64,000 nt of DNA from a virus: IMG/VR virus record IMGVR_UViG_3300050821_006280, positions 45,559 through 109,558 of that record, one strand, 5' to 3'. Positions 42,971 to 55,957 of this stretch are shown here, piece after piece (position 1 is the first letter of the stretch; every line of letters starts with the position of its first letter). A program made the position numbers and the translations under genes. The notes beneath the pieces were generated by a model. That model did no database searches and was not told the origin of the DNA. It saw only the letters and a program-made list of their open reading frames with translations.

Positions 42971-43044
42971 TGCGGACAAGAGAAACGGCAACTCACTTGG
43001 CTCATAACCAAGAGAATCAGGTTCAATTCCTGGGTCCGCAACCA
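42971..43044 (+). tRNA. tRNA with CAT anticodon (Met/fMet/Ile2)
   Basis: cttgg-ctCATaa-ccaag; encoded CCA. Confidence 0.8.
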
Positions 43045-43085
43045 AGGTAGTTTACAAGAGGAGTCTCGCTAGAGAGCTGAACATC

Positions 43086-43277
43086 ATGTTGACCCTGAAT
43101 TTACATAGGACCATAGGCGAAGCTGCCCTAGCCTCCGGTATCCAAACCGGACGGTCATGGTCCATCGTGGGTTCGGGATCGCTCTTTAGCTCGGATTGCG
43201 TCATGGGCCTGGAGCGCGGTCATAAGTATATCCAGACCCCGGCGACGACCACAAATCCCGGAGGCCCTTTCAGATAA
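43086..43277 (+). CDS. putative attenuator leader peptide (63 aa)
   Basis: Last codons form the 5' arm of a hairpin that competes with the downstream terminator. Confidence 0.5.
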   Translation: MLTLNLHRTIGEAALASGIQTGRSWSIVGSGSLFSSDCVMGLERGHKYIQTPATTTNPGGPFR

Positions 43278-43301
43278 ACCTGCACCAAGGGAACTGAAAG
43301 G

Positions 43302-43337
43302 GCCGCCAGGAGAGATCCTAGGCGGCTTTTTTATTTT
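43302..43337 (+). terminator. intrinsic terminator overlapped by an alternative hairpin
   Basis: gccgccagga-gaga-tcctaggcggc plus TTTTTTATTTT. Confidence 0.8.
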
Positions 43338-43361
43338 CCGGGGTCAAAAAGGATCAAATAT

Positions 43362-43446
43362 GCGGGCGTTGAGCAGCGTGGTGGGCTCACCTGACTGTAA
43401 ATCAGGCGCTTCGGCCGTGAAGGTTCGATTCCTTCCGTCCGCACCA
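43362..43446 (+). tRNA. tRNA-Tyr(GTA)
   Basis: cctga-ctGTAaa-tcagg; variable arm; CCA. Confidence 0.88.
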
Positions 43447-43507
43447 GGAGAAGTAAATGGATCTGATCTACGAGCGAAAACGCGGGCGAACGGAAGGGCA
43501 TACCTAC

Positions 43508-43582
43508 GCCTCCGTAGCCAAGCGGATAAGGCAGCGAACTTTTAATTCGTTGATCGCAGGTTCAAATCCTGCCGGGGGCACC
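43508..43582 (+). tRNA. tRNA-Lys(TTT)
   Basis: gcgaa-ctTTTaa-ttcgt. Confidence 0.88.
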
Positions 43583-43597
43583 TGAAGGAGAGAAGTC

Positions 43598-43828
43598 ATG
43601 AAGGTCTACATGATGCACGCAGGCGGCATGAAGGAAGTCGAGATGGAGTTCAAGAGCGCAGAGGGCGCTCTGGATCGTCTCGGTGTCCTCGGGCGTGGCG
43701 TGGAGACCATCAAGGATGACACGGGCACGGTGTTCCGTGTCGACCTTGGACGTGGCTTCTCGACAAAAAAGGGAGAAGTGATCCGTAAGACCTCGCTGGC
43801 CGCTTCTTTGTATCGGCAGGCGGGGTAG
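43598..43828 (+). CDS. hypothetical protein
   Basis: AAGGAG RBS. Confidence 0.65.
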   Translation: MKVYMMHAGGMKEVEMEFKSAEGALDRLGVLGRGVETIKDDTGTVFRVDLGRGFSTKKGEVIRKTSLAASLYRQAG

Positions 43829-43870
43829 ATAGAAATAACCGATCCCCCTCCTAACGGCCGGGGATCGTAT

Positions 43871-43942
43871 TCGGGGATAGGTCAATGGTAGACCAGCAGC
43901 CTCTGGAGCTGCGTGTTGGGGGTTCGAGTCCCTCTCCCCGAA
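43871..43942 (+). tRNA. tRNA-Gln(CTG)
   Basis: gcagc-ctCTGga-gctgc. Confidence 0.88.
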
Positions 43943-44088
43943 CTAGGGTTGTCGTGACTGTGCTGTACGCGACGTGAGTGTCTGATCTTCGGATCCAGGC
44001 CAGGGCGAGCGACAGGACGGCGAAACGTCGACAACCTATTGATAATTTAATAGTTGACGACGCGGGGGCGCACCATCGCCCCCAATAT

Positions 44089-44162
44089 GTCCCCTTAGCT
44101 TAATTGGTAGAGCGCTGCGCTGAAGACGCGGAGACCTCGGTTCGATCCCGAGGGGGGACACA
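44089..44162 (+). tRNA. tRNA-Phe(GAA)
   Basis: ctgcg-ctGAAga-cgcgg. Confidence 0.9.
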
Positions 44163-44166
44163 ATAT

Positions 44167-44298
44167 GCACCTGATGGTCAACGGTAGACCACCATCCTGA
44201 ACAGATGGCAAATCAAATACCAGGATTGCACCTCGGCTCCTTACGGAGCCAACTAGTGATCCTCACAAGCAGAGAAGGTTCGACTCCTTCCAGGTGCG
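44167..44298 (+). ncRNA. tRNA-like RNA (GAA loop) with 65-nt variable-region domain
   Basis: Acceptor gcacctg/caggtgc, D, anticodon and T arms intact; conserved insert. Confidence 0.8.
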
Positions 44299-44304
44299 CA
44301 ACAT

Positions 44305-44434
44305 GGCGCGTATGGGGATGGTCCCCAGCTCTCTTCCAAAGAGTGCAATATCCAGGATGGCACCTCGGCTTGAATAACAAGCCAACCAGCGATCCTCACA
44401 AGCTTTGTCGGTTCGATTCCGGCACGCGCCTCCA
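44305..44434 (+). ncRNA. tRNA-like RNA (TCC loop) with 62-nt variable-region domain
   Basis: Acceptor ggcgcgt/acgcgcc-TCCA; same insert. Confidence 0.8.
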
Positions 44435-44446
44435 CAGTAGCAACAT

Positions 44447-44582
44447 GGGTGAACACAGAGGGAGGGTCCCTCGCCAGCCTTGATAGCTGGAGCCAAAAGC
44501 TCCCAGAATCACACCTCGATCTCAGCAATGGGATCAACTCGTGGTTCTTACACGCCATCCGGTTCGACTCCGGGTTCATCCA
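44447..44582 (+). ncRNA. tRNA-like RNA (TGA loop) with 67-nt variable-region domain
   Basis: Acceptor gggtgaa/ttcatcc; same insert with compensatory changes. Confidence 0.8.
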
Positions 44583-44595
44583 CTGATTTGTTTTT

Positions 44596-44667
44596 GGGTG
44601 CGTAGCACAATGGAAGTGCAGTTGATTCTTAATCAATTGGTTCCGAGTTCGAGTCTCGGCGCACCCA
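44596..44667 (+). tRNA. tRNA-Lys(CTT)
   Basis: gttga-ttCTTaa-tcaat. Confidence 0.88.
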
Positions 44668-44790
44668 CTATTGAACGGGTTCGATTCCCTCCCTGGGCAC
44701 TATCCTGTGGTAAGATCAAATGGAGCGCAGATGCAGGTAATCGCCTCGACGTTCTCCAGTCTGATCTTTACCCCAGGGCTTTCTTCCGAT

Positions 44791-44879
44791 GGAAGGGTTT
44801 GCACATTGGCAAGTCAGCACCGCTCGAAACGGTGTGGGCCGGGTAACTGGCTCTGGGAGTTCGACTCTCTCCCCTTCCG
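44791..44879 (+). tRNA. tRNA-Ser(CGA), atypical D arm
   Basis: caccg-ctCGAaa-cggtg; long variable arm. Confidence 0.8.
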
Positions 44880-44905
44880 CTCTCAATACCAGCAAGGAGT
44901 ACTGC

Positions 44906-45124
44906 ATGCGGACGTGCCCCGAGTGCGCGACATGGCGTGGCGCTACGAGCGAGATCAACGTTCATAAGCGCGGGACGTACTGTCCGACATGCGGTGCTAC
45001 CAGGGCATTTGACGATCCTCTCTCAGAAGAGGATAACGAGATCCAGCACCACACCATGAAGCGGAAGTTGCGCAAGGTGGACTCTTTGAGTGAGGGAGCG
45101 CGCAAGCGTTTGCGCCTCGCATGA
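44906..45124 (+). CDS. zinc-ribbon protein
   Basis: CPEC...CPTC; AAGGAG RBS. Confidence 0.6.
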   Translation: MRTCPECATWRGATSEINVHKRGTYCPTCGATRAFDDPLSEEDNEIQHHTMKRKLRKVDSLSEGARKRLRLA

Positions 45125-45255
45125 CCAGCTGGTGGATCTTGCGCAATATCGTAATCATGTGCAAGATCCACGTTCCAACGCTGTTTCGGTGGATCGGTCC
45201 GTTTTTGTTGTAACCGGATTGATCGACCTCCGTATGGATGATACTGTGCTCTGTA

Positions 45256-45690
45256 ATGCGAGAGCTTAGTCACCACACGAAGGATAAAGGCGATCAAGGA
45301 GTCGGGTTCGTGATCGCTTCGCTTCTTTCCCACAATATCAAGATTGCTCTTCCGCTAAGTGAACATCTTCCGTTTGATCTGATTGCAATTTCTACTTCAG
45401 GACAAATGCGAAAGGTGTCAGTTAAGTATCGTGCGGAAAGAGATAGCAAAATTGAGGTAAGACCAGAAAGTAATTGGTCGAACGCAAAACAGTTCTGCAC
45501 TCGCAAATACGAGCCAGGCGAAGTCGATGCATATGCCATCTACTGTCCTAATACAAAGACGTGCTATTTTGTTCGGGAGTCAGATGCACTTCATGGAATC
45601 ATTCTTCGCATGGAACCGCCAGGCAACGGCCAGACAAAGGGCATACGAATGGCGAAGGATTTCGTAGATCCAAATTCGATATTTGTATAG
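45256..45690 (+). CDS. group I intron-associated-type PD-(D/E)xK endonuclease
   Basis: TKDKGD...PFDLIA...VSVKY...Y...VDAYAIYCP. Confidence 0.8.
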   Translation: MRELSHHTKDKGDQGVGFVIASLLSHNIKIALPLSEHLPFDLIAISTSGQMRKVSVKYRAERDSKIEVRPESNWSNAKQFCTRKYEPGEVDAYAIYCPNTKTCYFVRESDALHGIILRMEPPGNGQTKGIRMAKDFVDPNSIFV

Positions 45691-45697
45691 ATTTCAC

Positions 45698-45788
45698 GGA
45701 AGGATGGCAGAGAGGCTTAATGCGGCGGCTTGCTAAGCCGTTGTGCTGGGTAACCGGTACCGCGGGTTCAAATCCCGCTCCTTCCGCC
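45698..45788 (+). tRNA. tRNA-Ser(GCT)
   Basis: gcggc-ttGCTaa-gccgt. Confidence 0.9.
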
Positions 45789-45899
45789 GGTCAGTGAAAG
45801 GCCTAGTAGCTGACCAAATAAAACGCTCGCACCCAACGTGAGTTCCTCGGCATCGGCCGAAGCGTAAAAAGGAATCCCTGCGAAGGGTCTGGGTGTTTT

Positions 45900-45973
45900 C
45901 CGGGTGTAGCTCAGTTTGGAAGAGCATCCGCTTTGGGAGCGGAGGGTCACTGGTTCAAATCCAGTCTCCCGGA
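45900..45973 (+). tRNA. tRNA-Pro(TGG)
   Basis: tccgc-ttTGGga-gcgga. Confidence 0.9.
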
Positions 45974-45992
45974 CTACTGTAGTATTCGAGCC

Positions 45993-46214
45993 ATGAGCCG
46001 GCTTCTCTCCGTCGAAATGGCACTGACCATCTTCGTCATGAGCGCCGCCGGTTGCTATGTCGCTCTCACGCTTCGTGATCTATGGCGTCAGTACAGGCGC
46101 TATCGACGATTGAAAAAAGAAGGACCTTCCCCTGGTACCCCGGTGTACTTCGTCTCGAAGCAGGATAGAGCCAAAGACGATACCCCAGTCACGAAGAAGA
46201 CGATCAAACACTAA
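45993..46214 (+). CDS. small membrane protein
   Basis: One hydrophobic segment then basic tail. Confidence 0.5.
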   Translation: MSRLLSVEMALTIFVMSAAGCYVALTLRDLWRQYRRYRRLKKEGPSPGTPVYFVSKQDRAKDDTPVTKKTIKH

Positions 46215-46216
46215 AT

Positions 46217-46291
<75 letters not shown>

Positions 46292-46337
46292 GCTTGCAAT
46301 TCAGGACATGTAACAGTACGCTGTTTAAGATCCAAAT

Positions 46338-46413
46338 GCGGGTGTAGCTCAATTGGTAGAGCGCTAGCCTTCCAAGCTGGATGCTGTCGGTTCGAGTCCG
46401 ATCGCCCGCTCCA
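46338..46413 (+). tRNA. tRNA-Gly(TCC)
   Basis: ctagc-ctTCCaa-gctgg; TCCA. Confidence 0.92.
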
Positions 46414-46655
46414 TGAGAATCACGAGAGTAATTATCGAAGCTGAAGGCGATATTTCTGGATCAGCTTATCCGCCAACAGAAATACCGGGCTGCGGCCATG
46501 GATATCATGCCAAAGTCACGTATTCAGTCGACATGGAAACTGGCAAATGCGAAGCGGATGTTGACCTTCCAGGACTTGCAATGATTTCGAGTGACAAGTG
46601 GGAGCTTCATCTTCAAGAGGTCGCTGAACGCTGCAAGCGACTCATCAATCAGTAA
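46413..46655 (+). CDS. hypothetical protein
   Basis: Fills a tRNA spacer. Confidence 0.5.
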   Translation: MRITRVIIEAEGDISGSAYPPTEIPGCGHGYHAKVTYSVDMETGKCEADVDLPGLAMISSDKWELHLQEVAERCKRLINQ

Positions 46656-46656
46656 T

Positions 46657-46731
46657 GCCCTCATAGCTCATTTGGTAGAGCACCGCTTTCGTAAAGCGGG
46701 GGTGGTCAGTTCGATCCTGACTGGGGGCTCC
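46657..46731 (+). tRNA. tRNA-Thr(CGT)
   Basis: ccgct-ttCGTaa-agcgg. Confidence 0.9.
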
Positions 46732-46733
46732 GT

Positions 46734-46806
46734 GCCGGTGTAGCTCAATTGGCAGAGCGCCTCCCCTGTAAGGAGGATGTTGCGGGTTCGATGCCTGTCG
46801 CCGGCT
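46734..46806 (+). tRNA. tRNA-Thr(TGT)
   Basis: cctcc-ccTGTaa-ggagg. Confidence 0.88.
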
Positions 46807-46986
46807 CTAAGGAGAGAAACGATGCCGTGTTGGCCATGCGCAAAAGAGATCGAAGTTGGCAGTCTATGCGCTAGCTGCGAGCGCGGCGGAGATGATGACT
46901 GCGTACGAAAGCAGTCCATTTTCATCAAAAAACGTCGAAGCAATAAGAAGAAACCTCGGTCTCCAGTCACCGGAAAGTGATCTTAT

Positions 46987-47007
46987 TCCAGTGTAGCTCA
47001 GTCTGGA
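46987..47007 (+). pseudogene. displaced 5' fragment of tRNA-Asn
   Basis: tccagtgtagctcagtctgga vs tccagcgtaactcagttggca at 47446. Confidence 0.6.
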
Positions 47008-47038
47008 CAATTACCCAACTGTCTCGTAGTTTTGCTGC

Positions 47039-47455
47039 ATGAAAAACGATCCAAAAGCCAAAGGGGAGCGATCGGAGGCTATGGTTCTAGCGGCACTTCT
47101 GCGAAGTGGCAAGTCCGTTCTGCGACCGTTCGGTGATAACGAGCGATACGATCTAGTCATTGACGACGGCGAAAAATTCTCCAGAGTTCAATGCAAAACA
47201 GCACGTCGGGTTGGAAACGTCCTTAAATTCGACACGTGTTCATCGTATTCGCACCGCGGTGGGAAGAAAAAAGACTACCGCGGCCAGGTTGAGTTCTTTG
47301 GCATCTACAGTCCAGATGTCGATCGTGTATTCCTTGTTCCAGTCAGTCATGTTGGTACCACGAGCGCATCGCTTAGACTTACTCCGACTGTTAATGGCCA
47401 GCATGTCAACGTTAGGCTTGCTAGCGATTATGAATTGTCTTTCATTCCAGCGTAA
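47039..47455 (+). CDS. group I intron-associated-type PD-(D/E)xK endonuclease
   Basis: KAKGERSE...PFGDNERYDLVID...RVQCKTA. Confidence 0.88.
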   Translation: MKNDPKAKGERSEAMVLAALLRSGKSVLRPFGDNERYDLVIDDGEKFSRVQCKTARRVGNVLKFDTCSSYSHRGGKKKDYRGQVEFFGIYSPDVDRVFLVPVSHVGTTSASLRLTPTVNGQHVNVRLASDYELSFIPA

Positions 47456-47518
47456 CTCAGTTGGCAGAGTGCCTCACTGTTAATGAGGAGGTCACAGGTT
47501 CGAGTCCTGTCGCTGGAG
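47446..47518 (+). tRNA. tRNA-Asn(GTT)
   Basis: cctca-ctGTTaa-tgagg. Confidence 0.9.
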
Positions 47519-47650
47519 CTGTCATTCCTGAGATCGTCACCAGACGACGCCAGGCGGACGTGGTGAAAGTCCACGTGATCTCACAGCCGCTACGGGGCCG
47601 GCAGAAGCACCATCTCCCGCCGCCGTTTGCTCGGTCTTTGGGATGACAAT

Positions 47651-47724
47651 GAACCGCGCGCCGGACTGGGATGGCACTGGCCTGTTAAGCCAGGATAAGC
47701 AGGGTTCGATTCCCTGGCGGTTCG
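47651..47724 (+). tRNA. tRNA-Asn(GTT), atypical
   Basis: ctggc-ctGTTaa-gccag; no U8, short D stem. Confidence 0.7.
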
Positions 47725-47735
47725 CAGACTAGATT

Positions 47736-47810
47736 GCGAGAGTAGCTCAGCTGGTAGAGCGCATCCTTCCCAAGGATGATGTCGTGGGTTCAAATCCCAT
47801 CTCTTGCTCC
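47736..47810 (+). tRNA. tRNA-Gly(CCC)
   Basis: catcc-ttCCCaa-ggatg. Confidence 0.9.
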
Positions 47811-47907
47811 GACGGCAGTTGGTGTTTGGAGCTTCCCCCGAGCGGAGACGTTCGGAGGATGACGAGCTAGCGGAAGCAGTTCGTCGCCACCTGCCGTCCA
47901 TTTCCAC

Positions 47908-47983
47908 GGCGCCATCGTCTACTGGTTAGGACCCGGGCCTTTCACGTCCGAGAAGTGGGGTTCAATTCCCCCTGGCGCCACCA
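47908..47983 (+). tRNA. tRNA-Glu(TTC)
   Basis: cgggc-ctTTCac-gtccg; CCA. Confidence 0.9.
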
Positions 47984-47986
47984 TCT

Positions 47987-48061
47987 GGTCCCATAGTCTA
48001 ATGGTTAGGACGCCGGCCTCTCACGTCGGAATTCCGAGTTCAAATCTCGGTGGGATCACCA
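47987..48061 (+). tRNA. tRNA-Glu(CTC)
   Basis: ccggc-ctCTCac-gtcgg; CCA. Confidence 0.9.
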
Positions 48062-48066
48062 TGCAC

Positions 48067-48144
48067 GTCCCATTCGTCTAGCTGGCCTAGGACGCTGCCC
48101 TCTCAAGGCGGAAACGGCGAGTTCAAATCTCCCATGGGACACCA
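48067..48144 (+). tRNA. tRNA-Glu(CTC), second copy
   Basis: ctgcc-ctCTCaa-ggcgg; CCA. Confidence 0.85.
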
Positions 48145-48195
48145 CTTCCAAATTGATCAATGGACGGGTAGATTGCTCGATCAAAGGAGATCCAA

Positions 48196-48576
48196 ATGAT
48201 CAAACCTTCTACCCTGTTCATGATCTTGTTTCCCGTCCTGCTTTCTGGCTGCCCTGCCCACACCGATATCAAGGCAACGTTGAAGGATTTCGGTATCGGT
48301 GAGCTGGACTGTGGCAAGGCTGCTGTGGCGAATGAAATGCCGACCATCACTCCCGCAGTTGGGGCTCTCCTCGGTGGCTCCTCGCCAAATGGTCAGTCGC
48401 TTCTCGATGCACTGTTTCGCCAGGCGCCAGAGCTGATTGCGTGTTCGGTGAAGAACTTGATCGCCACCGCTGAGCACCCTGTCATCGGTCAAGAGGTCAA
48501 TCGCATGATGGCTGAGAAGAGTGCAGTCGTCGTGAAGAATGGAAAGGACGCACTTTCTCGTTGGGGTGCGCAATAG
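48196..48576 (+). CDS. putative lipoprotein
   Basis: LFMILFPVLLSGC lipobox; AAGGAG RBS. Confidence 0.7.
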   Translation: MIKPSTLFMILFPVLLSGCPAHTDIKATLKDFGIGELDCGKAAVANEMPTITPAVGALLGGSSPNGQSLLDALFRQAPELIACSVKNLIATAEHPVIGQEVNRMMAEKSAVVVKNGKDALSRWGAQ

Positions 48577-48580
48577 GCTG

Positions 48581-48817
48581 ATGTCGAAGAAAGCTCATAT
48601 ACCAGTGATTGAACGGTTGTTGTCTGGCTGGACTCATCCGCAAGGCCCGGACATGGCGTTCAATGATGCCCTTGCCGAATGGCACTCTGACAAGGTGTTC
48701 ACTGGTTCGATCTATGAGTATATGGGCTTGACCTGGGAAGAGTATCGTCGGTGGGCCGGTGATGCGAAGGCAGCCGCGGTCATCCTTCAAGAGAGACGGA
48801 GCCTACGGGCTCAATGA
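48581..48817 (+). CDS. hypothetical phage protein
   Basis: WH...IYEYMGLTWEEYRRW. Confidence 0.6.
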   Translation: MSKKAHIPVIERLLSGWTHPQGPDMAFNDALAEWHSDKVFTGSIYEYMGLTWEEYRRWAGDAKAAAVILQERRSLRAQ

Positions 48818-48856
48818 AACCTCCCCTGGGCTCTGCGAAAGCAACCTGGGGTTTTT

Positions 48857-48931
48857 GAGACCATAGCTCAGCTGGTAGAGCGTCGCCTCGACACGGCGAA
48901 GGTCGCAGGTTCGATCCCTGTTGGTCTCACC
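48857..48931 (+). tRNA. tRNA-Val(GAC)
   Basis: tcgcc-tcGACac-ggcga. Confidence 0.88.
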
Positions 48932-49101
48932 GCTCCCGTTGTCTCAATAGGTAGACCCTATGGGTTCCTGAGAGGGAATGCGTGGGTCGCGCCGAAGTAA
49001 GCAGTGGCCTATTCGCGGTAAGCCACTGACGAACGGCATCCGTAAAGACAGCCATCCTTACGCATGGTGGATGCAGGTACCCAATCCTGCCGGGAGCGCC
49101 A
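48932..49101 (+). ncRNA. 170-nt tRNA-like RNA with large internal domain
   Basis: Acceptor gctcccg/cgggagc-GCCA, D-like and T-like arms. Confidence 0.65.
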
Positions 49102-49221
49102 ATTCCGCTCGCGGAGCGTGTTAAACCGGGTTGATCACCGGCGAAGACCTAGATCCGCCCGCTACGGCAGGAGGCATCCTGCCAGGGATCAGACACGAAA
49201 GAACGTGCTGGCGAGCCAAAT

Positions 49222-49297
<76 letters not shown>

Positions 49298-49346
49298 GGA
49301 ACATAAAAGTCGATTCTGGTATTGTTGATCGCATAGGAGGTCAACG

Positions 49347-49571
49347 ATGACGACCCGAACGACCAAAGAAATGGCCGAGGAAGTCCTTGAATCGTTGAAG
49401 TCTGCTCACGAGGACAAGCCTTGGTTCAAAAAGGCAGTACTCGAAACGAGTGACTTGGGCTATGGCGTTGACCTTTGGGTTGATCGCGAGAAGTTCAGGG
49501 CTCGGACCGACAAGTTCATGCCGCCCGGTGCCATCAATCATGTCGTTGTATGCGTAATGGTGCAGGGCTAA
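49347..49571 (+). CDS. hypothetical protein
   Basis: AGGAGG RBS. Confidence 0.65.
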   Translation: MTTRTTKEMAEEVLESLKSAHEDKPWFKKAVLETSDLGYGVDLWVDREKFRARTDKFMPPGAINHVVVCVMVQG

Positions 49572-49575
49572 TCGC

Positions 49576-49651
49576 GCCCGTGTAGCTCAGCCTGGACAGA
49601 GCACCGGTTTACGAAGCCGGGTTTGCGGGGGTTCAAATCCCTCCTCGGGCA
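49576..49651 (+). tRNA. tRNA-Arg(ACG)
   Basis: ccggt-ttACGaa-gccgg. Confidence 0.88.
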
Positions 49652-49792
49652 CTTCGCCTCTAGCAATTTGAATGACAGTAGATCAGGATTGGTGTCGTGC
49701 ACCGGAGTGCTGGACCCGTAATGCGCGTTGGTGGCCACCGACGAGTCAAGCCAGCCGGGGATTGATCACGCCCGTTATCACAGTGATCATTT

Positions 49793-49867
49793 GGGCTGGT
49801 AGCTCAACGGGAGAGCAGCGGCTTTGCAAGCCGAAGGTTGTGGGTTCGATCCCCATCCGGTCCACCA
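49793..49867 (+). tRNA. tRNA-Ala(TGC)
   Basis: cggc-ttTGCaa-gccg; G3.U70; CCA. Confidence 0.9.
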
Positions 49868-49877
49868 CGAGGTCTAG

Positions 49878-50144
49878 ATGTTCGAGATGATCATCGATGG
49901 CGTGTATTGTATCTCGGGGCGAGGAATTGTTGTAACAGGCCACCCGAACCGAGAATCAATCCGTGTTGGAGAATCCGTCGAAATTTGGAATCCAGATGGA
50001 TCTGCACTCGACACGGTAATCACGGGGGTGGAGATGGTTTCCCCTCGTCGGCCGAATGACAATATCGGTCTTCTTCTGCGAACGACAGAAACCTTGAAAA
50101 CCAAGGACAACATCCACCCCGGCGCAGTCATGCGGCGCAAGTAA
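49878..50144 (+). CDS. stand-alone EF-Tu domain II-like protein
   Basis: IDGVYCISGRGIVVTG...IRVGESVEI...VITGVEM...DNIGLLLR. Confidence 0.82.
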   Translation: MFEMIIDGVYCISGRGIVVTGHPNRESIRVGESVEIWNPDGSALDTVITGVEMVSPRRPNDNIGLLLRTTETLKTKDNIHPGAVMRRK

Positions 50145-50152
50145 GGTGACCC

Positions 50153-50335
50153 ATGGAACGCAAGCTGACGATGATCCAAGTCGACCTGGAGCAGTGCCGT
50201 TGTGGTGTCGGTGCCCATGGTGATGGCAATGGACCAACCGTGTTCATCACCATGTTCCACAACGAGTTCGACGAACCGATCGTTGACGACGAAGCACGCC
50301 GTCAGATCAAGACAATCTTCCCGCAATTCGAGTAG
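50153..50335 (+). CDS. hypothetical protein
   Basis: Short ORF with RBS. Confidence 0.45.
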   Translation: MERKLTMIQVDLEQCRCGVGAHGDGNGPTVFITMFHNEFDEPIVDDEARRQIKTIFPQFE

Positions 50336-50342
50336 TTCAAAT

Positions 50343-50412
50343 GGGCAGCGGTCTGGGACCAAGCGAGTCTCCAAAACTTGCTAGCGCATGGGTTCGATCC
50401 CCCGGCGGCCCG
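50343..50412 (+). tRNA. tRNA-Trp(CCA), atypical (minimal D arm, irregular T stem)
   Basis: gcgagt-ctCCAaa-acttgc. Confidence 0.6.
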
Positions 50413-50431
50413 CTAATGGATGGAGCAGTAG

Positions 50432-50833
50432 ATGAGCGATCCATATAAGACTAAGCAAGTCATCGTGATGCGTAAAGATCTCAACATGAACCGTGGGAAA
50501 GAGATCGCCCAAGGCGCACACGCCTCAATGGCGTGGTTGTCTAATCGCATCCGCACGTCGAAGCGAGAAAATGGCCGTTATCTCGTTGAGCTTAGCGAGG
50601 CCGAAAGAGTCTGGCTCGAAGGTCAATTTGCTAAGGTGACATGCCAGGTTGACTCTGCCGCAGAACTTGAAGATCTCGTCGCCGCTGGCAAACGGCTGTA
50701 CATCGGAGCTGAGCTGATCGTCGATTCCGGTAAAACCTATTTTAAGGGTGTCAGCACGCCGACTTGCTGCGCAATCGGCCCAGGCACATCGGATCTCATC
50801 GACAGGATCACCGGGAAGCTAAAACTGTATTGA
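50432..50833 (+). CDS. pth2: peptidyl-tRNA hydrolase, Pth2 family
   Basis: KQVIVMRKDL.M.RGK.IAQ.AHA...IVDSGKT...IGP...IDRITGKLKL. Confidence 0.93.
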   Translation: MSDPYKTKQVIVMRKDLNMNRGKEIAQGAHASMAWLSNRIRTSKRENGRYLVELSEAERVWLEGQFAKVTCQVDSAAELEDLVAAGKRLYIGAELIVDSGKTYFKGVSTPTCCAIGPGTSDLIDRITGKLKLY

Positions 50834-50850
50834 TCGTGTAAGCTTGGCTT

Positions 50851-51042
50851 ATGGCCGAGTTGAACTTCATCGAGCTGCTAAAAAAGCACCTTGACGATCA
50901 TGGTCTCTCCGTAGAGGCTGCATCAGTGAAGTCTGGAATCCCACGGCTCCACATCGAAAAAGTTATCAATGGTCATGTGACATTGACCGCTTCACAGGAG
51001 GAAGAGATGGCCGCTCGAATAGGTCTGACGATCAAGTTCTAA
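50851..51042 (+). CDS. XRE-like HTH protein
   Basis: GLSVEAASVKSGIPRLHIEKVING. Confidence 0.6.
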   Translation: MAELNFIELLKKHLDDHGLSVEAASVKSGIPRLHIEKVINGHVTLTASQEEEMAARIGLTIKF

Positions 51043-51043
51043 T

Positions 51044-51118
51044 CCGCCTGTCGCCTAAGGGTTAAGGCCCGTGCCTTATAAGCGCGTGAACCGAGTTCGA
51101 GTCTCGGCGGGCGGACCA
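51044..51118 (+). tRNA. tRNA-Ile(TAT)
   Basis: cgtgc-ctTATaa-gcgcg; ACCA. Confidence 0.85.
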
Positions 51119-51158
51119 TGCTATAACACTGTCATTCGATCCGATCAGGGAGGATCCA

Positions 51159-51437
51159 ATGGCAGGCCCCATTCTGATTCTTGAAGTAGGTCATACCCGA
51201 AAGCTCATCGGCATTAACGCTGATGCCTCTGGATTTCTAGCTCCAGGACCACCAATCACCTGGGCTACAAGCAATGCTGCCGTCGCTACCGTCGACGCCA
51301 ACGGCAATGTTACCGGAGTCGGTGCTGGAACGTGCAACATCACGGCGACCAACGGTTCCCAGAGCACTGTGACAGCCACGACGGTTGCTGCGCGCAGCAC
51401 CTCACAGATCACGGTTGCTGTGGGAGACCGAACGTAG
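51159..51437 (+). CDS. Ig-like (Big_2) domain protein
   Basis: ITWATSNAAVATVDANGNVTGVGAGTCNITAT. Confidence 0.85.
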   Translation: MAGPILILEVGHTRKLIGINADASGFLAPGPPITWATSNAAVATVDANGNVTGVGAGTCNITATNGSQSTVTATTVAARSTSQITVAVGDRT

Positions 51438-51440
51438 CGC

Positions 51441-51641
51441 ATGGGTGACACTCTCAAGCTGTCGCAGCTTGACGCGCCTGACGATGGTCTTTCGGTCGAG
51501 CAGCTGGTTCATCTTGTCATCGACCCTCATGACGGTCCCCTGTGCGATCCAACAGAGCCAGTGACATCAACCAATGACCCTCACAAGATGACCTGTGAGC
51601 GATGCCGTCGAATTTGGATGACAGGTACCGCCGACGGGTAA
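51441..51641 (+). CDS. hypothetical protein
   Basis: VH...LC...TCERC. Confidence 0.5.
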   Translation: MGDTLKLSQLDAPDDGLSVEQLVHLVIDPHDGPLCDPTEPVTSTNDPHKMTCERCRRIWMTGTADG

Positions 51642-51653
51642 ACTATAGCTGCC

Positions 51654-52115
51654 ATGTCGCTCAATCTTCGTGACAAGACAGACGTGGAAGCCTGGGCCGC
51701 GTTTTGGATGCTGGCAGCAAAGATGGACATCGAGCGCAGCGGAGCATTGCTTCCTGTTGCCACGATTGTAGTTACCAGGAACATTCAGGAGATGCAGCCC
51801 GGTGGCTTCGTTCTCATCAAGGCGGATGCGCCGCTGGATGCTGATTCCAAGTTTCGCTGGGTCTCCAAGATCAAGGAGATTGTCCAAGCCGGCGCCGCTC
51901 TGGCAGTGATGACAGCTGGCGAGGCAATCCTAGCTGCTGCGGATGGTCCCGAGGCTGGCCTTGAACAGGAAGTTGTAGTTGTTGATCTTGAGCATGCGAC
52001 GCTTGGAGATCACTCATGGGTTGCCAATATCATCCGTGGCGACACGGGCGTGAAGCTGACTCCGTTCAAAACACGTCGACTTGAAGCAAGGTTTGGTAAG
52101 TTTCTGAAGCGATAA
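51654..52115 (+). CDS. hypothetical protein
   Basis: 153-aa ORF. Confidence 0.65.
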   Translation: MSLNLRDKTDVEAWAAFWMLAAKMDIERSGALLPVATIVVTRNIQEMQPGGFVLIKADAPLDADSKFRWVSKIKEIVQAGAALAVMTAGEAILAAADGPEAGLEQEVVVVDLEHATLGDHSWVANIIRGDTGVKLTPFKTRRLEARFGKFLKR

Positions 52116-52117
52116 AT

Positions 52118-52192
52118 GGCTCCTTAGCTCAACTGGCAGAGCGACCGCTTCATACGCGGTAGGTTCGGGGTTCGACTCCCCGAGGAGCCACC
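52118..52192 (+). tRNA. tRNA-Met(CAT)
   Basis: accgc-ttCATac-gcggt. Confidence 0.88.
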
Positions 52193-52286
52193 GACGCGCG
52201 GGGCAGGACCGCAGGGGGTTCCTCGCCGGGCGAAAGCCCGTAAATGTCGAGCATTCCCTCCAGCCGTGCAAGGCTGGCGTCTTCTC

Positions 52287-52359
52287 CGGGGTGTGGCGCA
52301 GTTGGTAGCGCGTTCGGTTCGGGACCGAAAGGTCGCTGGTTCAAATCCAGTCACCCCGA
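52287..52359 (+). tRNA. tRNA-Pro(CGG)
   Basis: ttcgg-ttCGGga-ccgaa. Confidence 0.92.
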
Positions 52360-52377
52360 CTAAATTGACAATCATAT

Positions 52378-52453
52378 AGTCCCTTAGCTCAGCTGGTAGA
52401 GCGCCTGTATCACACACAGGAGGTCACCCGTTCAATCCGGGTAGGGACTACCA
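52378..52453 (+). tRNA. tRNA-Val(CAC)
   Basis: cctgt-atCACac-acagg; CCA. Confidence 0.88.
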
Positions 52454-52455
52454 AT

Positions 52456-52528
52456 CGGCACCAGTCCACCCGGTGGTGAGTCGATCCCTACAAGGTCGAC
52501 GTGGCGGGTTCGATTCCCGCGGTGCCGA
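52456..52528 (+). tRNA. tRNA-Val(TAC), atypical (7-bp anticodon stem, tiny D loop)
   Basis: gtcgatc-ccTACaa-ggtcgac. Confidence 0.6.
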
Positions 52529-52534
52529 CAACAC

Positions 52535-52607
52535 GCGCATATAGCTCAACAGGTAGAGCAGCTGCCCGATTAGCGGAAGGTTGGGGGTTCGATTCCCTCT
52601 ATGCGCA
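52535..52607 (+). tRNA. tRNA-Ile(GAT)-like, atypical loop
   Basis: ctgc-ccGATta-gcgg. Confidence 0.65.
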
Positions 52608-52609
52608 CT

Positions 52610-52691
52610 GTGACGATAGGTTAAGGCTCCCGGTGGAGCCGCTGGTTTGTGGAACCAGCATCAGCGAGTTCAACTCTCGGTCGTCACCCCA
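52610..52691 (+). tRNA. tRNA-His(GTG), atypical (long acceptor-D linker)
   Basis: gctggt-ttGTGga-accagc; CCCA end. Confidence 0.65.
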
Positions 52692-52801
52692 ATACGATTT
52701 GGCAGTAGGCGAGTAAAGACGCGCTGAGGGGCGGGTACTCCCCCGCTTGGAGGACTTCAGAGATACCGGGGGCGGTCCCGGTACTGCCAATCAATTTTGC
52801 T

Positions 52802-53017
52802 TCATCTGATCATGTGGACAAAGTGCGGGTGTCCAAATACGCCGAGAAGATTGAGAAGCCAGAGCAGCATGACTACAGCCATGATGATCTTTGCTATCTG
52901 CATCATCGGCGGCGGAAGCCCAAGCATCGTGATTATCCAGTACACGACTGCTATCACAGCAAACATGAGCAGCAGTGAAATCAGGAGCGACAGCAACATT
53001 GGATCACCTCCGATCAA
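52802..53017 (-). CDS. small two-TM membrane protein
   Basis: Two hydrophobic helices joined by LPPP. Confidence 0.7.
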   Translation of the reverse strand: MIGGDPMLLSLLISLLLMFAVIAVVYWIITMLGLPPPMMQIAKIIMAVVMLLWLLNLLGVFGHPHFVHMIR

Positions 53018-53087
53018 ATGATTATCGGCACAATCATTCTATGTTTCAATGTAATTAGAATCTGACGTGTGACGCAGGGTGTAAAAC

Positions 53088-53190
53088 GGATCTGTAGCTC
53101 AGTTGGTCAGAGCGGCGAATTCTGGAAGAGATAGAAAAGTGTGACCTGGTGTGCGCCAACTGCCATCGCGAACGCACCTTCTCTAGGCAG
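53088..53190 (+). pseudogene. tRNA 5' half fused to an HNH endonuclease remnant
   Basis: ggatctgtagctcagttggtcagagcggc, then a frame reading RILEEIEKCDLVCANCHRERT. Confidence 0.65.
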
Positions 53191-53194
53191 TTCT

Positions 53195-53267
53195 CCGCTC
53201 ATAGCTCAAAGGCAGAGCAATCGGCTGATAACCGATAGACGCAAGTTCGATCCTTGCTGGGCGGACC
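53195..53267 (+). tRNA. tRNA-Ile(GAT)
   Basis: atcgg-ctGATaa-ccgat. Confidence 0.9.
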
Positions 53268-53317
53268 GCTAGTTCAAGTCTAGCCAGATCCACTACAATA
53301 TCGGTTGGTGCTGGGGC

Positions 53318-53764
53318 TTAGACGCCGGTGGTTGCAGGCTGATCGTGGGTGTCGACAGGAGCGGCTGGCTGCTCTGCGGCTGCGGCTGGGGCGGCAGGAG
53401 CAGCCGTCGCAACAGGAGCAGCGGGAGCAGGCGCTGGTGCTGGTGCTGGCGGCGCAACAGGCTGAGCGACTGGCGAATCGAACGAGAGATCCAGCTCCGA
53501 ATCATCGCTCACAGTCACGTGCACATGGATCACGTGGGTGAGCGGACCGCAGACGACAGTGACATCTGCATTCCCAGGGTTCCCAGCCACCATGGTGCAG
53601 GCGCGCTTCGTGGTGTCCGCAGAATCGCAGCTGATCGCGACGATGGCAGAATCCGACGTGCTCCAGGTGGCGACAGTTGTTGTATCCACGACTCCCTTCG
53701 CATCCTTGGCAAGGATGCGGACGATCTGTTGCTGTTCGTCACTGAGAACTGTATTGAATTCCAT
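53318..53764 (-). CDS. Ig-like domain protein with Pro/Ala-rich tail
   Basis: GGAGGAG RBS; ATWSTSDSAIVAI...GNADVTV. Confidence 0.65.
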   Translation of the reverse strand: MEFNTVLSDEQQQIVRILAKDAKGVVDTTTVATWSTSDSAIVAISCDSADTTKRACTMVAGNPGNADVTVVCGPLTHVIHVHVTVSDDSELDLSFDSPVAQPVAPPAPAPAPAPAAPVATAAPAAPAAAAEQPAAPVDTHDQPATTGV

Positions 53765-53961
53765 GACTCCTCCTGTTCCGTTGATAGGTGATCCGACCCA
53801 GACTTCGAGCTGGGATGGGACTTGATGGTGCCGGTGCCTGAACATCGACATGATCTTGATCCAGCACATTTGATCGGATCAGAAATATACCTGGATTATC
53901 AAAGAACGTCTTGCAAAAGGATCGATACGAGAATTACCGCGCAGACGCTTGCGTGGGATAT

Positions 53962-54039
53962 GGTGGGTGTAGCTCAATTGGTTAGAGCACCGGATTGTGG
54001 ATCCGGGGGTTGCGGGTTCAAGTCCCGTCACTCACCCCA
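53962..54039 (+). tRNA. tRNA-His(GTG)
   Basis: ccgga-ttGTGga-tccgg; G-1, CCCA. Confidence 0.93.
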
Positions 54040-54076
54040 TATGAAAGCTTGGTTACCGTCGTGGTAAGATCAAAGC

Positions 54077-54634
54077 ATGAAGAACGACGAAGTAACTGAT
54101 CAAGTTAAAAGGCCGAAGCAACCATCCCCTCAGTGGCTTGTCACTGCGGTGTTCGGGCTTCTCTCTGCTGTTGCGGCGAGTCTGCCTGCGGCATATTTCA
54201 GCTACCGATCAGCAAAGGTCGAAGCCGAATCAAAGACTTCGCAAGTAAAGGCCGAGGCTGATATCGGGTATCAGACCCTGGTCAAAGCTGTTGCGAAGCA
54301 TGAAGAACACGATGCTCAGCAAGACCATTGGATCTCTCGGATCGAAGGTCATGTTGCTGCCATTGAGCAGGCGCTGACGCGAGTAACGATTGTGAGCAGC
54401 CACAGGACAATTCCGGCTGAAAGCGAGGATGGAGCTTCCGAGGTCGAAGGTGGCTCTCCGCCGCCTCCCAAGAAGAAGCCGAAGGCGATGAAATTGAAGT
54501 TTAATTACACTCCACCTGCCCCCATCGCTGCACAAGGCCATGAATACAAACCGGAGGTTCTGCCCTCGACGCTGGACAAAGCCGTTACGAATTTCGGTGA
54601 TTCGAGCATTAAGCGGGCAGCGACCGCGAAGTAA
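54077..54634 (+). CDS. membrane-anchored coiled-coil protein
   Basis: N-terminal TM segment then helical region. Confidence 0.65.
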   Translation: MKNDEVTDQVKRPKQPSPQWLVTAVFGLLSAVAASLPAAYFSYRSAKVEAESKTSQVKAEADIGYQTLVKAVAKHEEHDAQQDHWISRIEGHVAAIEQALTRVTIVSSHRTIPAESEDGASEVEGGSPPPPKKKPKAMKLKFNYTPPAPIAAQGHEYKPEVLPSTLDKAVTNFGDSSIKRAATAK

Positions 54635-54638
54635 TACC

Positions 54639-54719
54639 GCCCGGGTGGCGTAATGGTAGCCGCAGCCCACTTAAAACGGGCCGTCGCAAGACGTGCGAGT
54701 TCGATTCTCGCCCTGGGCA
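54639..54719 (+). tRNA. tRNA-Leu(TAA)
   Basis: ctTAAaa loop; variable arm. Confidence 0.88.
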
Positions 54720-54777
54720 CAGTTTCCTCTTTCAGCTTGTTTTCCTGATCAAGAAAATGGTCGATTTTAGGAAACAC

Positions 54778-54852
54778 CGGCGTGTGGCGCAGCCTGGTTA
54801 GCGCACCAGTCTGGGGGACTGGGGGTCGGAGGTTCAAATCCTTCCACGCCGA
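54778..54852 (+). tRNA. tRNA-Pro(GGG)
   Basis: ccagt-ctGGGgg-actgg. Confidence 0.92.
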
Positions 54853-54901
54853 CGGAGGAGCACCGATACTTACTCCGACCAATTTGATATGATGGCTTCC
54901 A

Positions 54902-55432: not shown

Positions 55433-55495
55433 CAAATCCTCTCACGCCGACCTGGACAATCACGGATTGCGATAGGACGATGATCATCGTAATGA

Positions 55496-55577
55496 GGTCC
55501 CCTGGCGGAACTGGCAGACGCGCTGGACTTAGGATCCAGTGCCGAAAGGCGTGGGGGTTCGATTCCCCCGGGGACTA
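55496..55577 (+). tRNA. tRNA-Leu(TAG)
   Basis: ctgga-ctTAGga-tccag. Confidence 0.92.
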
Positions 55578-55580
55578 CTA

Positions 55581-55868: not shown

Positions 55869-55957
55869 TGATCTTTGATCTCGTAGACTTCATTGTTGAG
55901 CTTCTTGGAGATGTGGTTCTCATGCTTTTTGGTGTTGATTCAGACGATTAGTAATAT

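What the first reader, a model, noticed from the sequence alone, without database searches (positions are those of the whole stretch)
44167..44582. Three tandem tRNA-like RNAs carrying the same covarying domain in the variable region
Seen: three consecutive RNAs with dissimilar tRNA bodies (loops GAA, TCC, TGA) each have a 62-67 nt variable region holding one module. Copy 1 is AGGATTGC-ACCTC-GGCTCC(ttac)GGAGCC-AACTA-GTGATCCT-cacaagc. Copy 2 is AGGATGGC-ACCTC-GGCTTG(aataa)CAAGCC-AACCA-GCGATCCT-cacaagc. Copy 3 is AGAATCAC-ACCTC-GATCTCA(gcaa)TGGGATC-AACTC-GTGGTTCT-tacacgc. The stems change in a compensatory way, while the 5x5 internal loop (ACCTC/AACYM) and the 3' linker are kept. D stems are long (5-6 bp), two copies have a pyrimidine at position 37, and normal Phe, Gly(TCC) and Ser(TGA) tRNAs exist elsewhere in the array. 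Knowledge: canonical variable arms are far shorter, and this is too small for a group I intron. Inference: a dedicated RNA family in which a tRNA scaffold displays a constant protein- or RNA-binding module with a swappable anticodon arm. It could be bait for anticodon nucleases, an adaptor, or a novel removable intron. CACCTC also matches the core of the 16S anti-Shine-Dalgarno.
Basis: partly seen in the sequence, partly recalled or inferred. Interest (0 to 1): 0.92.

Follow-up and report, generated by a model that had tools for sequence, protein, structure and literature searches.

The report
Phage tRNA-shaped RNAs with docking arm
Three neighbouring genes in a soil phage's tRNA cluster encode tRNA-shaped RNAs with a large conserved extra arm; the same RNA family occurs in dozens of huge phages, nearly always beside a gene for a Ro60-like ring protein, so it is probably an uncatalogued relative of Y RNAs.

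Summary
Window 44167-44298, 44305-44431 and 44447-44582 each fold as a tRNA cloverleaf. Between the anticodon arm and the T arm sits a ~50-nt module: helix P1, an NN-CUC loop, hairpin P2, an A-N-C-rich loop, P1', then YACA[A/C]GC. ARAGORN and Rfam do not call them.

The family is real and widespread. A model built from the module finds it in more than 30 other IMG/VR phage contigs, mostly 130-530 kb. Covariation is strong: 14 of 14 pairs show double changes, and CUC and ACA.G are invariant in 44 sequences.

In those phages the RNAs lie 2-19 kb from, and on the same strand as, a conserved ~630-aa gene. Its predicted fold is Ro60-like (TROVE-like ring plus vWA domain).

My best reading is Y-RNA-like partner RNAs: an unpermuted tRNA body carrying a capped docking arm. 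They are not YrlA members, not introns and not ordinary decoding tRNAs.

Caveats: this phage's contig is 68% complete and holds no Ro60-like gene, and no RNA or binding data exist. Earlier notes of this scan reported related Ro60-like/"handle" RNA systems on other DNA.

The parts
44167..44298 (+). tRNA-like RNA copy 1. Acceptor 44167-73/44291-97; D arm 44175-91; anticodon-like arm 44192-208 (loop CUGAACA); linker ending CC 44209-21; P1 44222-29/44256-63; loop ACCUC 44230-34; P2 hairpin 44235-50; loop AACUA 44251-55; CACAAGC 44264-70; T arm 44274-90; discriminator G 44298.
44305..44434 (+). tRNA-like RNA copy 2. Acceptor 44305-11/44424-30; D arm 44313-27; anticodon-like arm 44328-44 (loop CUUCCAA); linker 44345-53; P1 44354-61/44389-96; ACCUC 44362-66; P2 44367-83; AACCA 44384-88; CACAAGC 44397-403; T arm 44407-23; U73 44431; encoded CCA 44432-34.
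44447..44582 (+). tRNA-like RNA copy 3. Acceptor 44447-53/44575-81; D arm 44458-72; anticodon-like arm 44474-90 (loop CUUGAUA); extra small hairpin GGAGC-CAAAA-GCUCC about 44489-503, whose first two bases overlap the 3' strand of the anticodon-like stem (alternative pairing); P1 44505-12/44541-48; ACCUC 44513-17; P2 44518-35; AACUC 44536-40; UACACGC 44549-55; T arm 44558-74; discriminator A 44582.
42971..62996 (+). Surrounding phage array of 43 ordinary tRNA genes plus a tmRNA, all on the + strand. The three RNAs sit between tRNA-Phe(GAA) 44089-44161 and tRNA-Lys(CUU) 44596-44668, separated by spacers of only 5-15 nt.

Best explanation
The three genes encode stable non-coding RNAs of a widespread, uncatalogued phage family. 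Each is an unpermuted tRNA-shaped body whose variable region is replaced by a capped, two-helix arm. The arm has invariant single-stranded CUC, an A-N-C-rich opposite loop and a 3' UACA[A/C]GC tail. Steps shown here: the structure, its conservation and covariation, and the genomic linkage of the family to a Ro60-like gene in other phages. Steps inferred: the RNAs are co-transcribed with the tRNA array and cut out by the tRNA-processing enzymes, because they keep an acceptor stem and T arm. The arm (P1 plus UACAAGC, with the CUC loop) is the docking site for a ring-shaped Ro60-like (TROVE-like plus vWA) protein. The tRNA-shaped body then acts as in bacterial Y RNAs: as a nuclease-resistant scaffold or tether that brings the ring protein to tRNA-handling enzymes or to damaged tRNAs during infection. 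The anticodon-like loop is not used for decoding and drifts or diversifies freely. In this phage the protein partner is not on the available 110-kb contig. It would have to lie in the missing third of the genome or come from the host.
For: Structure of the three copies. The second model (R2) gives 44 hits, all on the strand of that gene in 15 of 22 distinct loci fetched through the protein. In three more phages (147-412 kb) the single hit lies 4.4-5.6 kb from the gene on the same strand. Covariation: 91.5% of cells paired against 59.9% in shuffles, 14/14 pairs with changes on both sides, score 0.85 against 0.24 (0 of 500 shuffles) and 0.07-0.15 for slid partners. C-U-C is invariant or nearly so (43, 44 and 44 of 44) and A-C-A-N-G is invariant in 44/44. 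Protein: the full model's ten best Foldseek hits are all Ro60/TROVE chains over more than 500 columns. The N-terminal domain alone gives Ro60 from frog, Deinococcus and Thermus phage as the top 3 of 48,161 chains (Z 11.3, 9.9, 9.4; 256-289 residues aligned; next Z 6.6). There is a C-terminal vWA domain with an invariant DxSxS. Reverse, RNA-first test: of 20 new records hit by a sequence pattern, 15 are confirmed by the model. Twelve of those 15 carry the Ro60-like gene; the three without are 6-44% complete fragments. None of the 5 unconfirmed records carries it. RNA-to-gene distances are 2.4-4.4 kb in 8 records and 10-19 kb in 4, always on the same strand. Five Ro-negative records have no RNA hit. 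Precedent: tRNA-like Y RNAs are encoded beside Ro60 in more than 250 bacteria and phages (PMC4201824), and phage phiLo Ro60 binds two upstream Y-like RNAs (PMC12135203).
Against: No Ro60-like, TROVE or vWA gene is found in this phage's 109,558-bp record by tblastn, family profile or Pfam models. The record is only distantly related to the huge phages, so the partner here is unknown. The known Ro60-binding motifs (GGUCCGA, GNCGAA, CGAA) are absent from the arm. The Ro60-like assignment rests on predicted structure only: Pfam TROVE and PDB sequence searches are negative, and Foldseek on the N-terminal domain alone is not significant. In many huge phages the Ro60-like gene also sits next to ordinary tRNA arrays, so part of the linkage could be indirect. 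One phage has a five-copy cluster 232 kb from the gene. No transcript, processing or binding data exist.
Confidence: 0.6

Rival explanations
1. Same RNA family, but the conserved arm binds something other than the Ro60-like protein, or acts alone. One example is a decoy or sponge for host tRNA-cleaving defence nucleases or tRNA-modifying enzymes. The linkage to the Ro60-like gene would then reflect only shared residence in tRNA-repair or tRNA-array neighbourhoods.
For: This phage has the RNAs but no Ro60-like gene on 110 kb. Anticodon-like loops vary even between orthologues, as expected for a bait under diversifying pressure. GAA and UCC loops recur in different phages. The Ro60-like gene is often beside normal tRNA arrays. 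A second conserved gene of unknown function always follows the Ro60-like gene.
Against: In a complete 192-kb phage the four RNAs abut the Ro60-like gene while its only ordinary tRNAs are 150 kb away. In 390-450-kb genomes nearly all copies lie within 5 kb of the gene on the same strand. All 7 family-positive records that are at least 85% complete have the gene.
Confidence: 0.22
2. They are working, aminoacylated tRNAs (Phe, Gly, Ser isoacceptors) that carry an extra arm, for example to mark phage tRNAs for a phage factor.
For: The three window copies have a full cloverleaf and 7-nt loops with U33. Copy 2 has U73 plus an encoded CCA. Several huge-phage members score 36-50 bits end to end on Rfam's tRNA model.
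Against: A pyrimidine sits at position 37 in two of the three copies. Position 8 is A in copies 1 and 2, and in copy 3 four bases (CACA) separate the acceptor from the D stem. The window copies are not matched by the tRNA model even in permissive mode. Many family members have 6-, 8- or 9-nt loops or lack U33. Orthologues do not keep the anticodon. Normal tRNAs with the same anticodons are present in the array.
Confidence: 0.12
3. The module is a removable insert (a new kind of tRNA intron or a small mobile element) that interrupts three tRNA genes.
For: The insert sits at one fixed place in three different tRNA bodies. Homing-endonuclease genes (HNH, PD-(D/E)XK) lie in the array.
Against: No insert-free version of any member was seen. 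The flanking CC and UACAAGC are conserved with the module. Removing P1-P2 leaves about 20-30 nt that do not form a normal variable region. There is no match to any Rfam intron or ribozyme family. Covariation over more than 40 diverged copies shows selection on the folded RNA itself.
Confidence: 0.04

Closest known systems
YrlA-type bacterial and phage Y RNAs bound by Ro60/Rsr (Rfam RF02553; Chen et al. 2014, PMC4201824)
   Same: A small RNA that joins a tRNA mimic (T arm, D arm, acceptor-like stem) to a helix-loop-helix protein-docking stem. It is encoded in one or more copies next to a ring-shaped TROVE plus vWA protein gene, also in phages, and sometimes co-transcribed with tRNAs.
   Different: In YrlA the tRNA part is circularly permuted, and the RNA's own 5' and 3' ends form the Ro60 stem in place of the anticodon arm, with a GNCGAA motif. 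Here the tRNA is unpermuted with free acceptor ends and a full anticodon-like arm. The docking stem is a capped hairpin in the variable region, and the conserved letters are CUC and UACA[A/C]GC. The Rfam YrlA model does not match. The partner protein has no sequence match to TROVE.
Thermus phage phiLo Ro60 with Yrl1/Yrl2 (PMC12135203; PDB 9KOP, 9L5Y)
   Same: A phage-encoded Ro60 ring with its partner RNAs encoded just upstream. The phiLo protein is among the top three structural matches of the huge-phage protein's N-terminal domain.
   Different: The phiLo RNAs are classical stem-bulge-stem Y RNAs with a CGAA motif and no tRNA cloverleaf. Binding is shown experimentally there and only inferred here.
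Class II tRNAs (Ser, Leu, Tyr, Sec) with long variable arms
   Same: An extra helix emerges between the anticodon arm and the T arm. Copy 3 and its orthologues even keep a short Ser-like variable hairpin before the module.
   Different: Natural variable arms are 10-24 nt with no conserved internal loop. Here the region is 62-67 nt with invariant motifs shared across different 'anticodons'.
'ACAGCAA-handle' RNAs next to DUF2828/Ro60-like genes and dictyostelid Class I RNAs
   Same: A short clamp helix followed directly by a conserved single-stranded tail (UACAGCAA there, UACAAGC here) that travels with a Ro60-like gene and carries tRNA-like parts.
   Different: UACAGCAA is not enriched in these loci (2 occurrences on the gene's strand against 2 on the other), whereas UACAAGC is (79 against 14). 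Part of the 79 is a conserved codon run inside the Ro60-like gene itself. Here the clamp is capped by a hairpin and the tRNA is not permuted. Homology of the two tails is a lead and has not been shown.

Membership tests
tRNA (Rfam RF00005) | Scores at or above the family's gathering threshold (29 bits), or is called by a tRNA finder | tested here: not met
   ARAGORN and Rfam in gathering and E<=10 modes do not report the three window copies. Some huge-phage members reach 36-50 bits.
tRNA (Rfam RF00005) | Cloverleaf with 7-bp acceptor stem, GG in the D loop and a UUCRANY T loop | tested here: met
tRNA (Rfam RF00005) | Decoding-competent anticodon loop (7 nt, U33, purine 37) and a variable region of 4-24 nt | tested here: not met
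   Position 37 is C in copy 1 and U in copy 3. The variable region is 62-67 nt. Relatives have 6-9-nt loops, often without U33.
YrlA Y RNA (Rfam RF02553) | Match to the family model (gathering score 69 bits) | tested here: not met
   The only hit scores 20.3 bits. It spans the T arm of copy 3 and the D arm of the next tRNA, the dimeric-tRNA artefact. In the huge-phage loci the best score is 28 bits.
YrlA Y RNA (Rfam RF02553) | 5' and 3' ends pair to form the Ro60 stem with a GNCGAA(N)G motif; permuted T-then-D order | tested here: not met
   The order is acceptor-D-anticodon-module-T-acceptor, and the arm holds no GNCGAA motif. Definition taken from PMC4201824.
Ro60 / Y RNA ribonucleoprotein (functional class) | RNA genes encoded beside a Ro60 (TROVE plus vWA) gene | tested here: inconclusive
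   Met for the family: more than 25 phage records, 2-19 kb apart, same strand. Not met in this window's own 110-kb, 68%-complete record.
Ro60 / Y RNA ribonucleoprotein (functional class) | Partner protein has the TROVE ring fold plus a vWA domain with MIDAS | tested here: met
   By predicted structure only. Foldseek top 10 are Ro60. The N-terminal domain gives Z 11.3, 9.9 and 9.4 to three Ro60s against 6.6 for the next chain. vWA Z 14-15. DxSxS invariant. The Pfam TROVE model does not match.
Ro60 / Y RNA ribonucleoprotein (functional class) | Physical binding of the RNA by the protein | not testable with these tools
   The complex predictor takes no RNA chains, and no RNA runs hold this sequence.
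tRNA introns (group I; archaeal bulge-helix-bulge) | Match to an intron family, or a bulge-helix-bulge at the exon junctions and a normal tRNA after removal | tested here: not met
   No Rfam intron or ribozyme hit. The residual variable region after removal is about 20-30 nt and conserved.

The most novel reading that the evidence does not exclude
A previously undescribed class of phage Y-like RNAs. These would be full, unpermuted tRNAs that can be processed, and perhaps CCA-tailed or charged, like tRNAs, and that carry a capped docking arm for a highly divergent Ro60-like ring protein. Many huge phages, and at least one unrelated soil phage, would use them to steer RNA surveillance or repair toward the tRNA pool during the contest with host tRNA-cleaving defences. 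The free-running anticodon loops would serve as a panel of tRNA look-alikes.
Probability: 0.4. Interest if true: 0.88.

Novelty: new variant of a known kind. Interest (0 to 1): 0.76.

Why it matters
Ro60 and its Y RNAs are conserved from bacteria to humans, yet what the tRNA-like part of bacterial Y RNAs does is still open.

This family puts the docking element on an intact tRNA, in several versions per genome, in many huge phages that also carry large tRNA arrays. It offers a natural series of constructs (same arm, different tRNA bodies and loops) for testing how a Ro60-type ring is aimed at tRNA biology.

It also adds an RNA family, and a protein family of more than 1,700 members, to phage genome annotation. 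At present the RNAs are missed or mis-called as tRNAs with odd anticodons, and the proteins are labelled only as 'vWA domain' proteins.

Tried and rejected
- A strict pattern scan of viral contigs built from the three copies found nothing.
- Single-protein searches for relatives of this phage (tail-fibre-like 603 aa, DnaB-like) found nothing.
- GenBank phage blastn matched only ordinary tRNAs.
- Rhizobium phage L338C has exactly the same record length (109,558 bp) but is unrelated, a coincidence.
- One of the two pattern hits (L009) and five were chance matches not confirmed by the model.
- Sequence searches of the Ro60-like protein against PDB, Pfam and PHROGs gave only the vWA domain.
- Foldseek with the N-terminal domain alone gave only generic helical repeats; Ro60 ranked 42nd.
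- The second-look structural aligner on the whole model listed only vWA domains.
- No Ro60-like, TROVE, vWA or conserved-neighbour gene was found in the phage's own record.
- No RNA holder was listed among public runs. DNA contigs from two soil metagenomes are identical over the parts they cover, so they give no variation data, and no joined form was seen.
- The UACAGCAA handle from earlier notes is not enriched in the window, nor on the gene's strand in the Ro60 loci. The window's array has no further YACA[A/C]GC-tagged RNAs beyond the three.
- The protein atlas gave nothing usable for the conserved 324-aa neighbour.
- The anti-Shine-Dalgarno idea is rejected because only CUC is conserved.

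Full report
**1. Setting**

The window is the last 64 kb of a 109,558-bp IMG/VR virus record from soil, 68% complete by CheckV. It has no close relative among GenBank phages.

From 42.9 kb to the contig end it carries 43 ordinary tRNA genes and a tmRNA, all on the + strand. These are interspersed with small ORFs, including HNH and PD-(D/E)XK endonucleases.

**2. The observation**

Between tRNA-Phe(GAA) and tRNA-Lys(CUU) lie three genes that neither ARAGORN nor Rfam reports, even at E<=10.

Read directly and folded, each has these parts, in order:
- a perfect 7-bp acceptor stem;
- a D arm with GG in its loop;
- a 5-bp anticodon-like stem with a 7-nt loop (CUGAACA, CUUCCAA, CUUGAUA);
- a linker ending in CC;
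- an 8-bp helix P1;
- the loop ACCUC;
- a 6-7-bp hairpin P2;
- the loop AACYN;
- the return strand of P1;
- YACAMGC;
- 2-3 further bases;
- a canonical T arm;
- the acceptor 3' strand.

The exact ends are 44167-44298, 44305-44431 (followed by an encoded CCA) and 44447-44582.

- The D stems are long.
- Position 37 is a pyrimidine in copies 1 and 3.
- Normal isoacceptors for all three 'anticodons' exist elsewhere in the array.

A covariance model of the module (R1) scores the three at 75-81 bits and nothing else in the window above 11 bits.

**3. The family exists elsewhere**

A relaxed pattern scan of IMG/VR hit a complete 192-kb phage, G001. G001 has four such RNAs in tandem: the model scored three of them, and the fourth was seen by reading the sequence.
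- The architecture is the same but the P1 and P2 sequences differ.
- They lie directly upstream of a 639-aa gene.
- That phage's only three ordinary tRNAs are 150 kb away.

The protein belongs to a large family. More than 1,700 proteins match at E<=0.001, and the best 120 are at least 55% identical; many of those lie on contigs of 100-536 kb.

I fetched 24 further loci through the protein and scanned them with the model:
- Module hits appear on the gene's strand in most loci.
- A second model trained on those hits (R2) gave 44 hits, all on the + strand.
- A simple script showed that nearly every hit sits in a 107-156-nt RNA with a 7/7 acceptor stem, a D arm, an anticodon-like arm and a T arm.
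- Rfam's tRNA model, in permissive mode, aligns several of them end to end at 36-50 bits with one large insertion.

**4. Conservation and covariation**

On the 44-sequence alignment:
- 91.5% of cells pair, against 59.9% in shuffles.
- All 14 pairs show changes on both sides (204 cells).
- The covariation score is 0.85, against 0.24 for shuffles (0 of 500 reach it) and 0.07-0.15 when partners are slid.
- The alignment was fitted to the model, which favours the structure. The size of the effect, and the plainly different helices seen by eye, leave little doubt.

Invariant or nearly invariant letters:
- CC before P1;
- the second P1 pair, G:C;
- C-U-C;
- the G:C pair closing P2;
- A then C in the opposite loop;
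- (U)ACA(A/C)GC after P1'.

The two bases before CUC vary. The resemblance of CACCUC to the anti-Shine-Dalgarno sequence is therefore a local accident.

**5. The neighbouring protein**

Sequence methods see only a C-terminal vWA domain, with an invariant DxSxS metal site.

Predicted structure gives more:
- The AlphaFold2 model has pLDDT 78.7. Its ten best Foldseek matches in the PDB are all Ro60/TROVE chains, aligned over more than 500 columns.
- Those matches could be driven by the vWA domain, so I folded residues 1-415 alone (pLDDT 80.0).
- Foldseek on that domain was not significant.
- The exhaustive structural aligner placed three Ro60 proteins first of 48,161 chains: frog Ro60 (Z 11.3, 289 residues), Deinococcus Rsr (Z 9.9) and Thermus phage phiLo Ro60 (Z 9.4). 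The next chain scored 6.6.

A helical ring domain followed by vWA with MIDAS is the Ro60 architecture. I take the protein as Ro60-like with about 85% confidence, on predicted structure only.

**6. Linkage tested both ways**

Protein first:
- 15 of 22 distinct loci have RNAs within 4 kb.
- Three of the remaining phages (147-412 kb) have their single hit 4.4-5.6 kb from the gene on the same strand.

RNA first:
- A pattern built from conserved RNA letters hit 25 stretches.
- The model confirmed 15 new records.
- Twelve of those 15 carry the gene. The three that do not are 6-44% complete.
- None of the five unconfirmed records carries it, and those five have no RNA hit anywhere.

Distances and whole-genome scans:
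- Distances are 2.4-4.4 kb in eight records and 10-19 kb in four, always on the same strand.
- I scanned five complete 390-450-kb genomes whole. In three, every hit lies in one cluster next to the gene. A fourth has one copy near the gene plus a five-copy cluster 232 kb away. In the fifth, the two weak locus-level hits did not reach the genome-wide threshold.

A caution: in many of these phages the gene also adjoins ordinary tRNA arrays, so some linkage could be indirect. The 192-kb phage argues against that.

**7. What the anticodon-like loop tells us**

- Loops across the family are 6-9 nt, often without U33. GAA and UCC do recur.
- Copy 3 has about 75%-identical full-length orthologues in three huge phages.
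- Their anticodon-like stems covary, and the small extra hairpin, the module and the T arm are kept.
- The loops, however, read CUUGAUA, AUUUAGGA, CCACGAA and AUUUGGA.

The loop is therefore not constrained as an anticodon.

**8. Comparison with what is known**

- Chen et al. 2014 (PMC4201824) found YrlA RNAs beside Ro60 in more than 250 bacteria and phages. Those RNAs are permuted tRNA mimics whose ends form the Ro60 stem, with a GNCGAA motif.
- Phage phiLo Ro60 binds two upstream Y-like RNAs with a CGAA motif (PMC12135203).
- Iyer et al. 2021 note TROVE proteins in some jumbo phages.

The present RNAs fail the YrlA membership tests on model score, motif and topology. They share the logic: a tRNA mimic plus a docking helix beside a Ro60-type gene.

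Seen as a circular permutation, the two designs agree. In both, a helix has a conserved single-stranded tail leaving one strand. Here the far end of that helix is capped by P2, and the tRNA's acceptor ends are left open.

My literature searches found no description of this architecture.

**9. Earlier notes of this scan**

I consulted these notes after reaching the Ro60 link. They report related 'handle' RNAs (a clamp helix plus UACAGCAA) with Ro60-like or DUF2828 genes in other phages and giant viruses.

I tested the motif:
- UACAGCAA is not enriched in these loci.
- UACAAGC occurs 79 times on the gene's strand and 14 times on the other.
- Many of the 79 are a conserved codon run in the gene itself.

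I adopt the 'handle' wording for P1 plus tail. Homology between the two tails is not shown.

**10. What remains open for this window**

- The phage's own 110-kb record has no Ro60-like, TROVE, vWA or conserved-neighbour gene.
- It shares only a few distant replication genes with the 192-kb phage.
- The array runs to the contig end, so the partner may lie in the missing third, be supplied by the host, or not exist.
- No RNA data are available.

Confidence by level:
- The family assignment is near certain.
- The Ro60-like partnership for the family is likely.
- Its application to this phage is an inference.

**11. Verdict**

This is a real, strongly supported and uncatalogued RNA family. It is a new architectural variant of the Ro60/Y-RNA theme rather than a new kind of system.

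Noticed in passing
L013:12376-13350 and homologues at about 5.9-8.7 kb of most loci L023-L046: A ~320-aa ORF of unknown family lies downstream of the Ro60-like gene on the same strand, usually within 0.1-3 kb, in 23 of 24 loci (36-61% identity in the aligned set). A profile gives only a weak hit to an RNase H chain (E 0.002, about 77 residues). It could be a third component of the system.
   Followed up: partly
L038:353, L038:638, L037:612, L043:9098, L029:2544 and 2914, L032:2529: In the Ro60-like loci, UACAAGC also occurs outside the module RNAs, directly upstream of D-arm-like sequence (for example ...GCC-UACAAGC-AAAG-UAGCUCAAUCGG...). This suggests a second, handle-first (possibly permuted or acceptor-less) class of tRNA-like RNAs in the same gene neighbourhoods.
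   Followed up: partly
G009 (IMGVR_UViG_3300032782_000001) 99242-100091: A 436-kb phage has five tandem module RNAs 232 kb from its Ro60-like gene, besides one copy 3.6 kb from the gene. Clusters can therefore be remote.
   Followed up: no
window 45238-45690, 47039-47455, 54902-55432, 58192-58836, 62140-62724: Small ORFs inside the tRNA array have 28-51% identical relatives in the module-RNA loci of huge phages. They include a PD-(D/E)XK endonuclease, two HNH endonucleases and two ORFs of unknown function. They are probably mobile homing-endonuclease-type genes that move between phage tRNA arrays.
   Followed up: partly
window 60680-61077: A phage-encoded one-piece tmRNA (112 bits on Rfam) with tag peptide ANDNMYPAASLRAAA, near the end of the array.
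   Followed up: no
window 30337-39771: A single 3,144-aa ORF in a region of raised G+C content and GC skew (about 34-40 kb), followed by a 603-aa ORF with a Laminin_G_3 / pectate-lyase-like domain. These are probably tail or fibre proteins.
   Followed up: no
window 44162-44166, 44299-44304, 44435-44446: The spacers before the three RNAs end in the same letters (CAAUAU, CAACAU, ..GCAACAU). This suggests the units arose by tandem duplication together with their 5' leaders, or share a processing signal.
   Followed up: no
window 43947-60553 (other spacers of the array): Another first-reader note lists closed-stem 75-130-nt non-tRNA elements in many array spacers. None of them matches the module model or carries the YACA[A/C]GC tail next to a helix.
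   Followed up: partly
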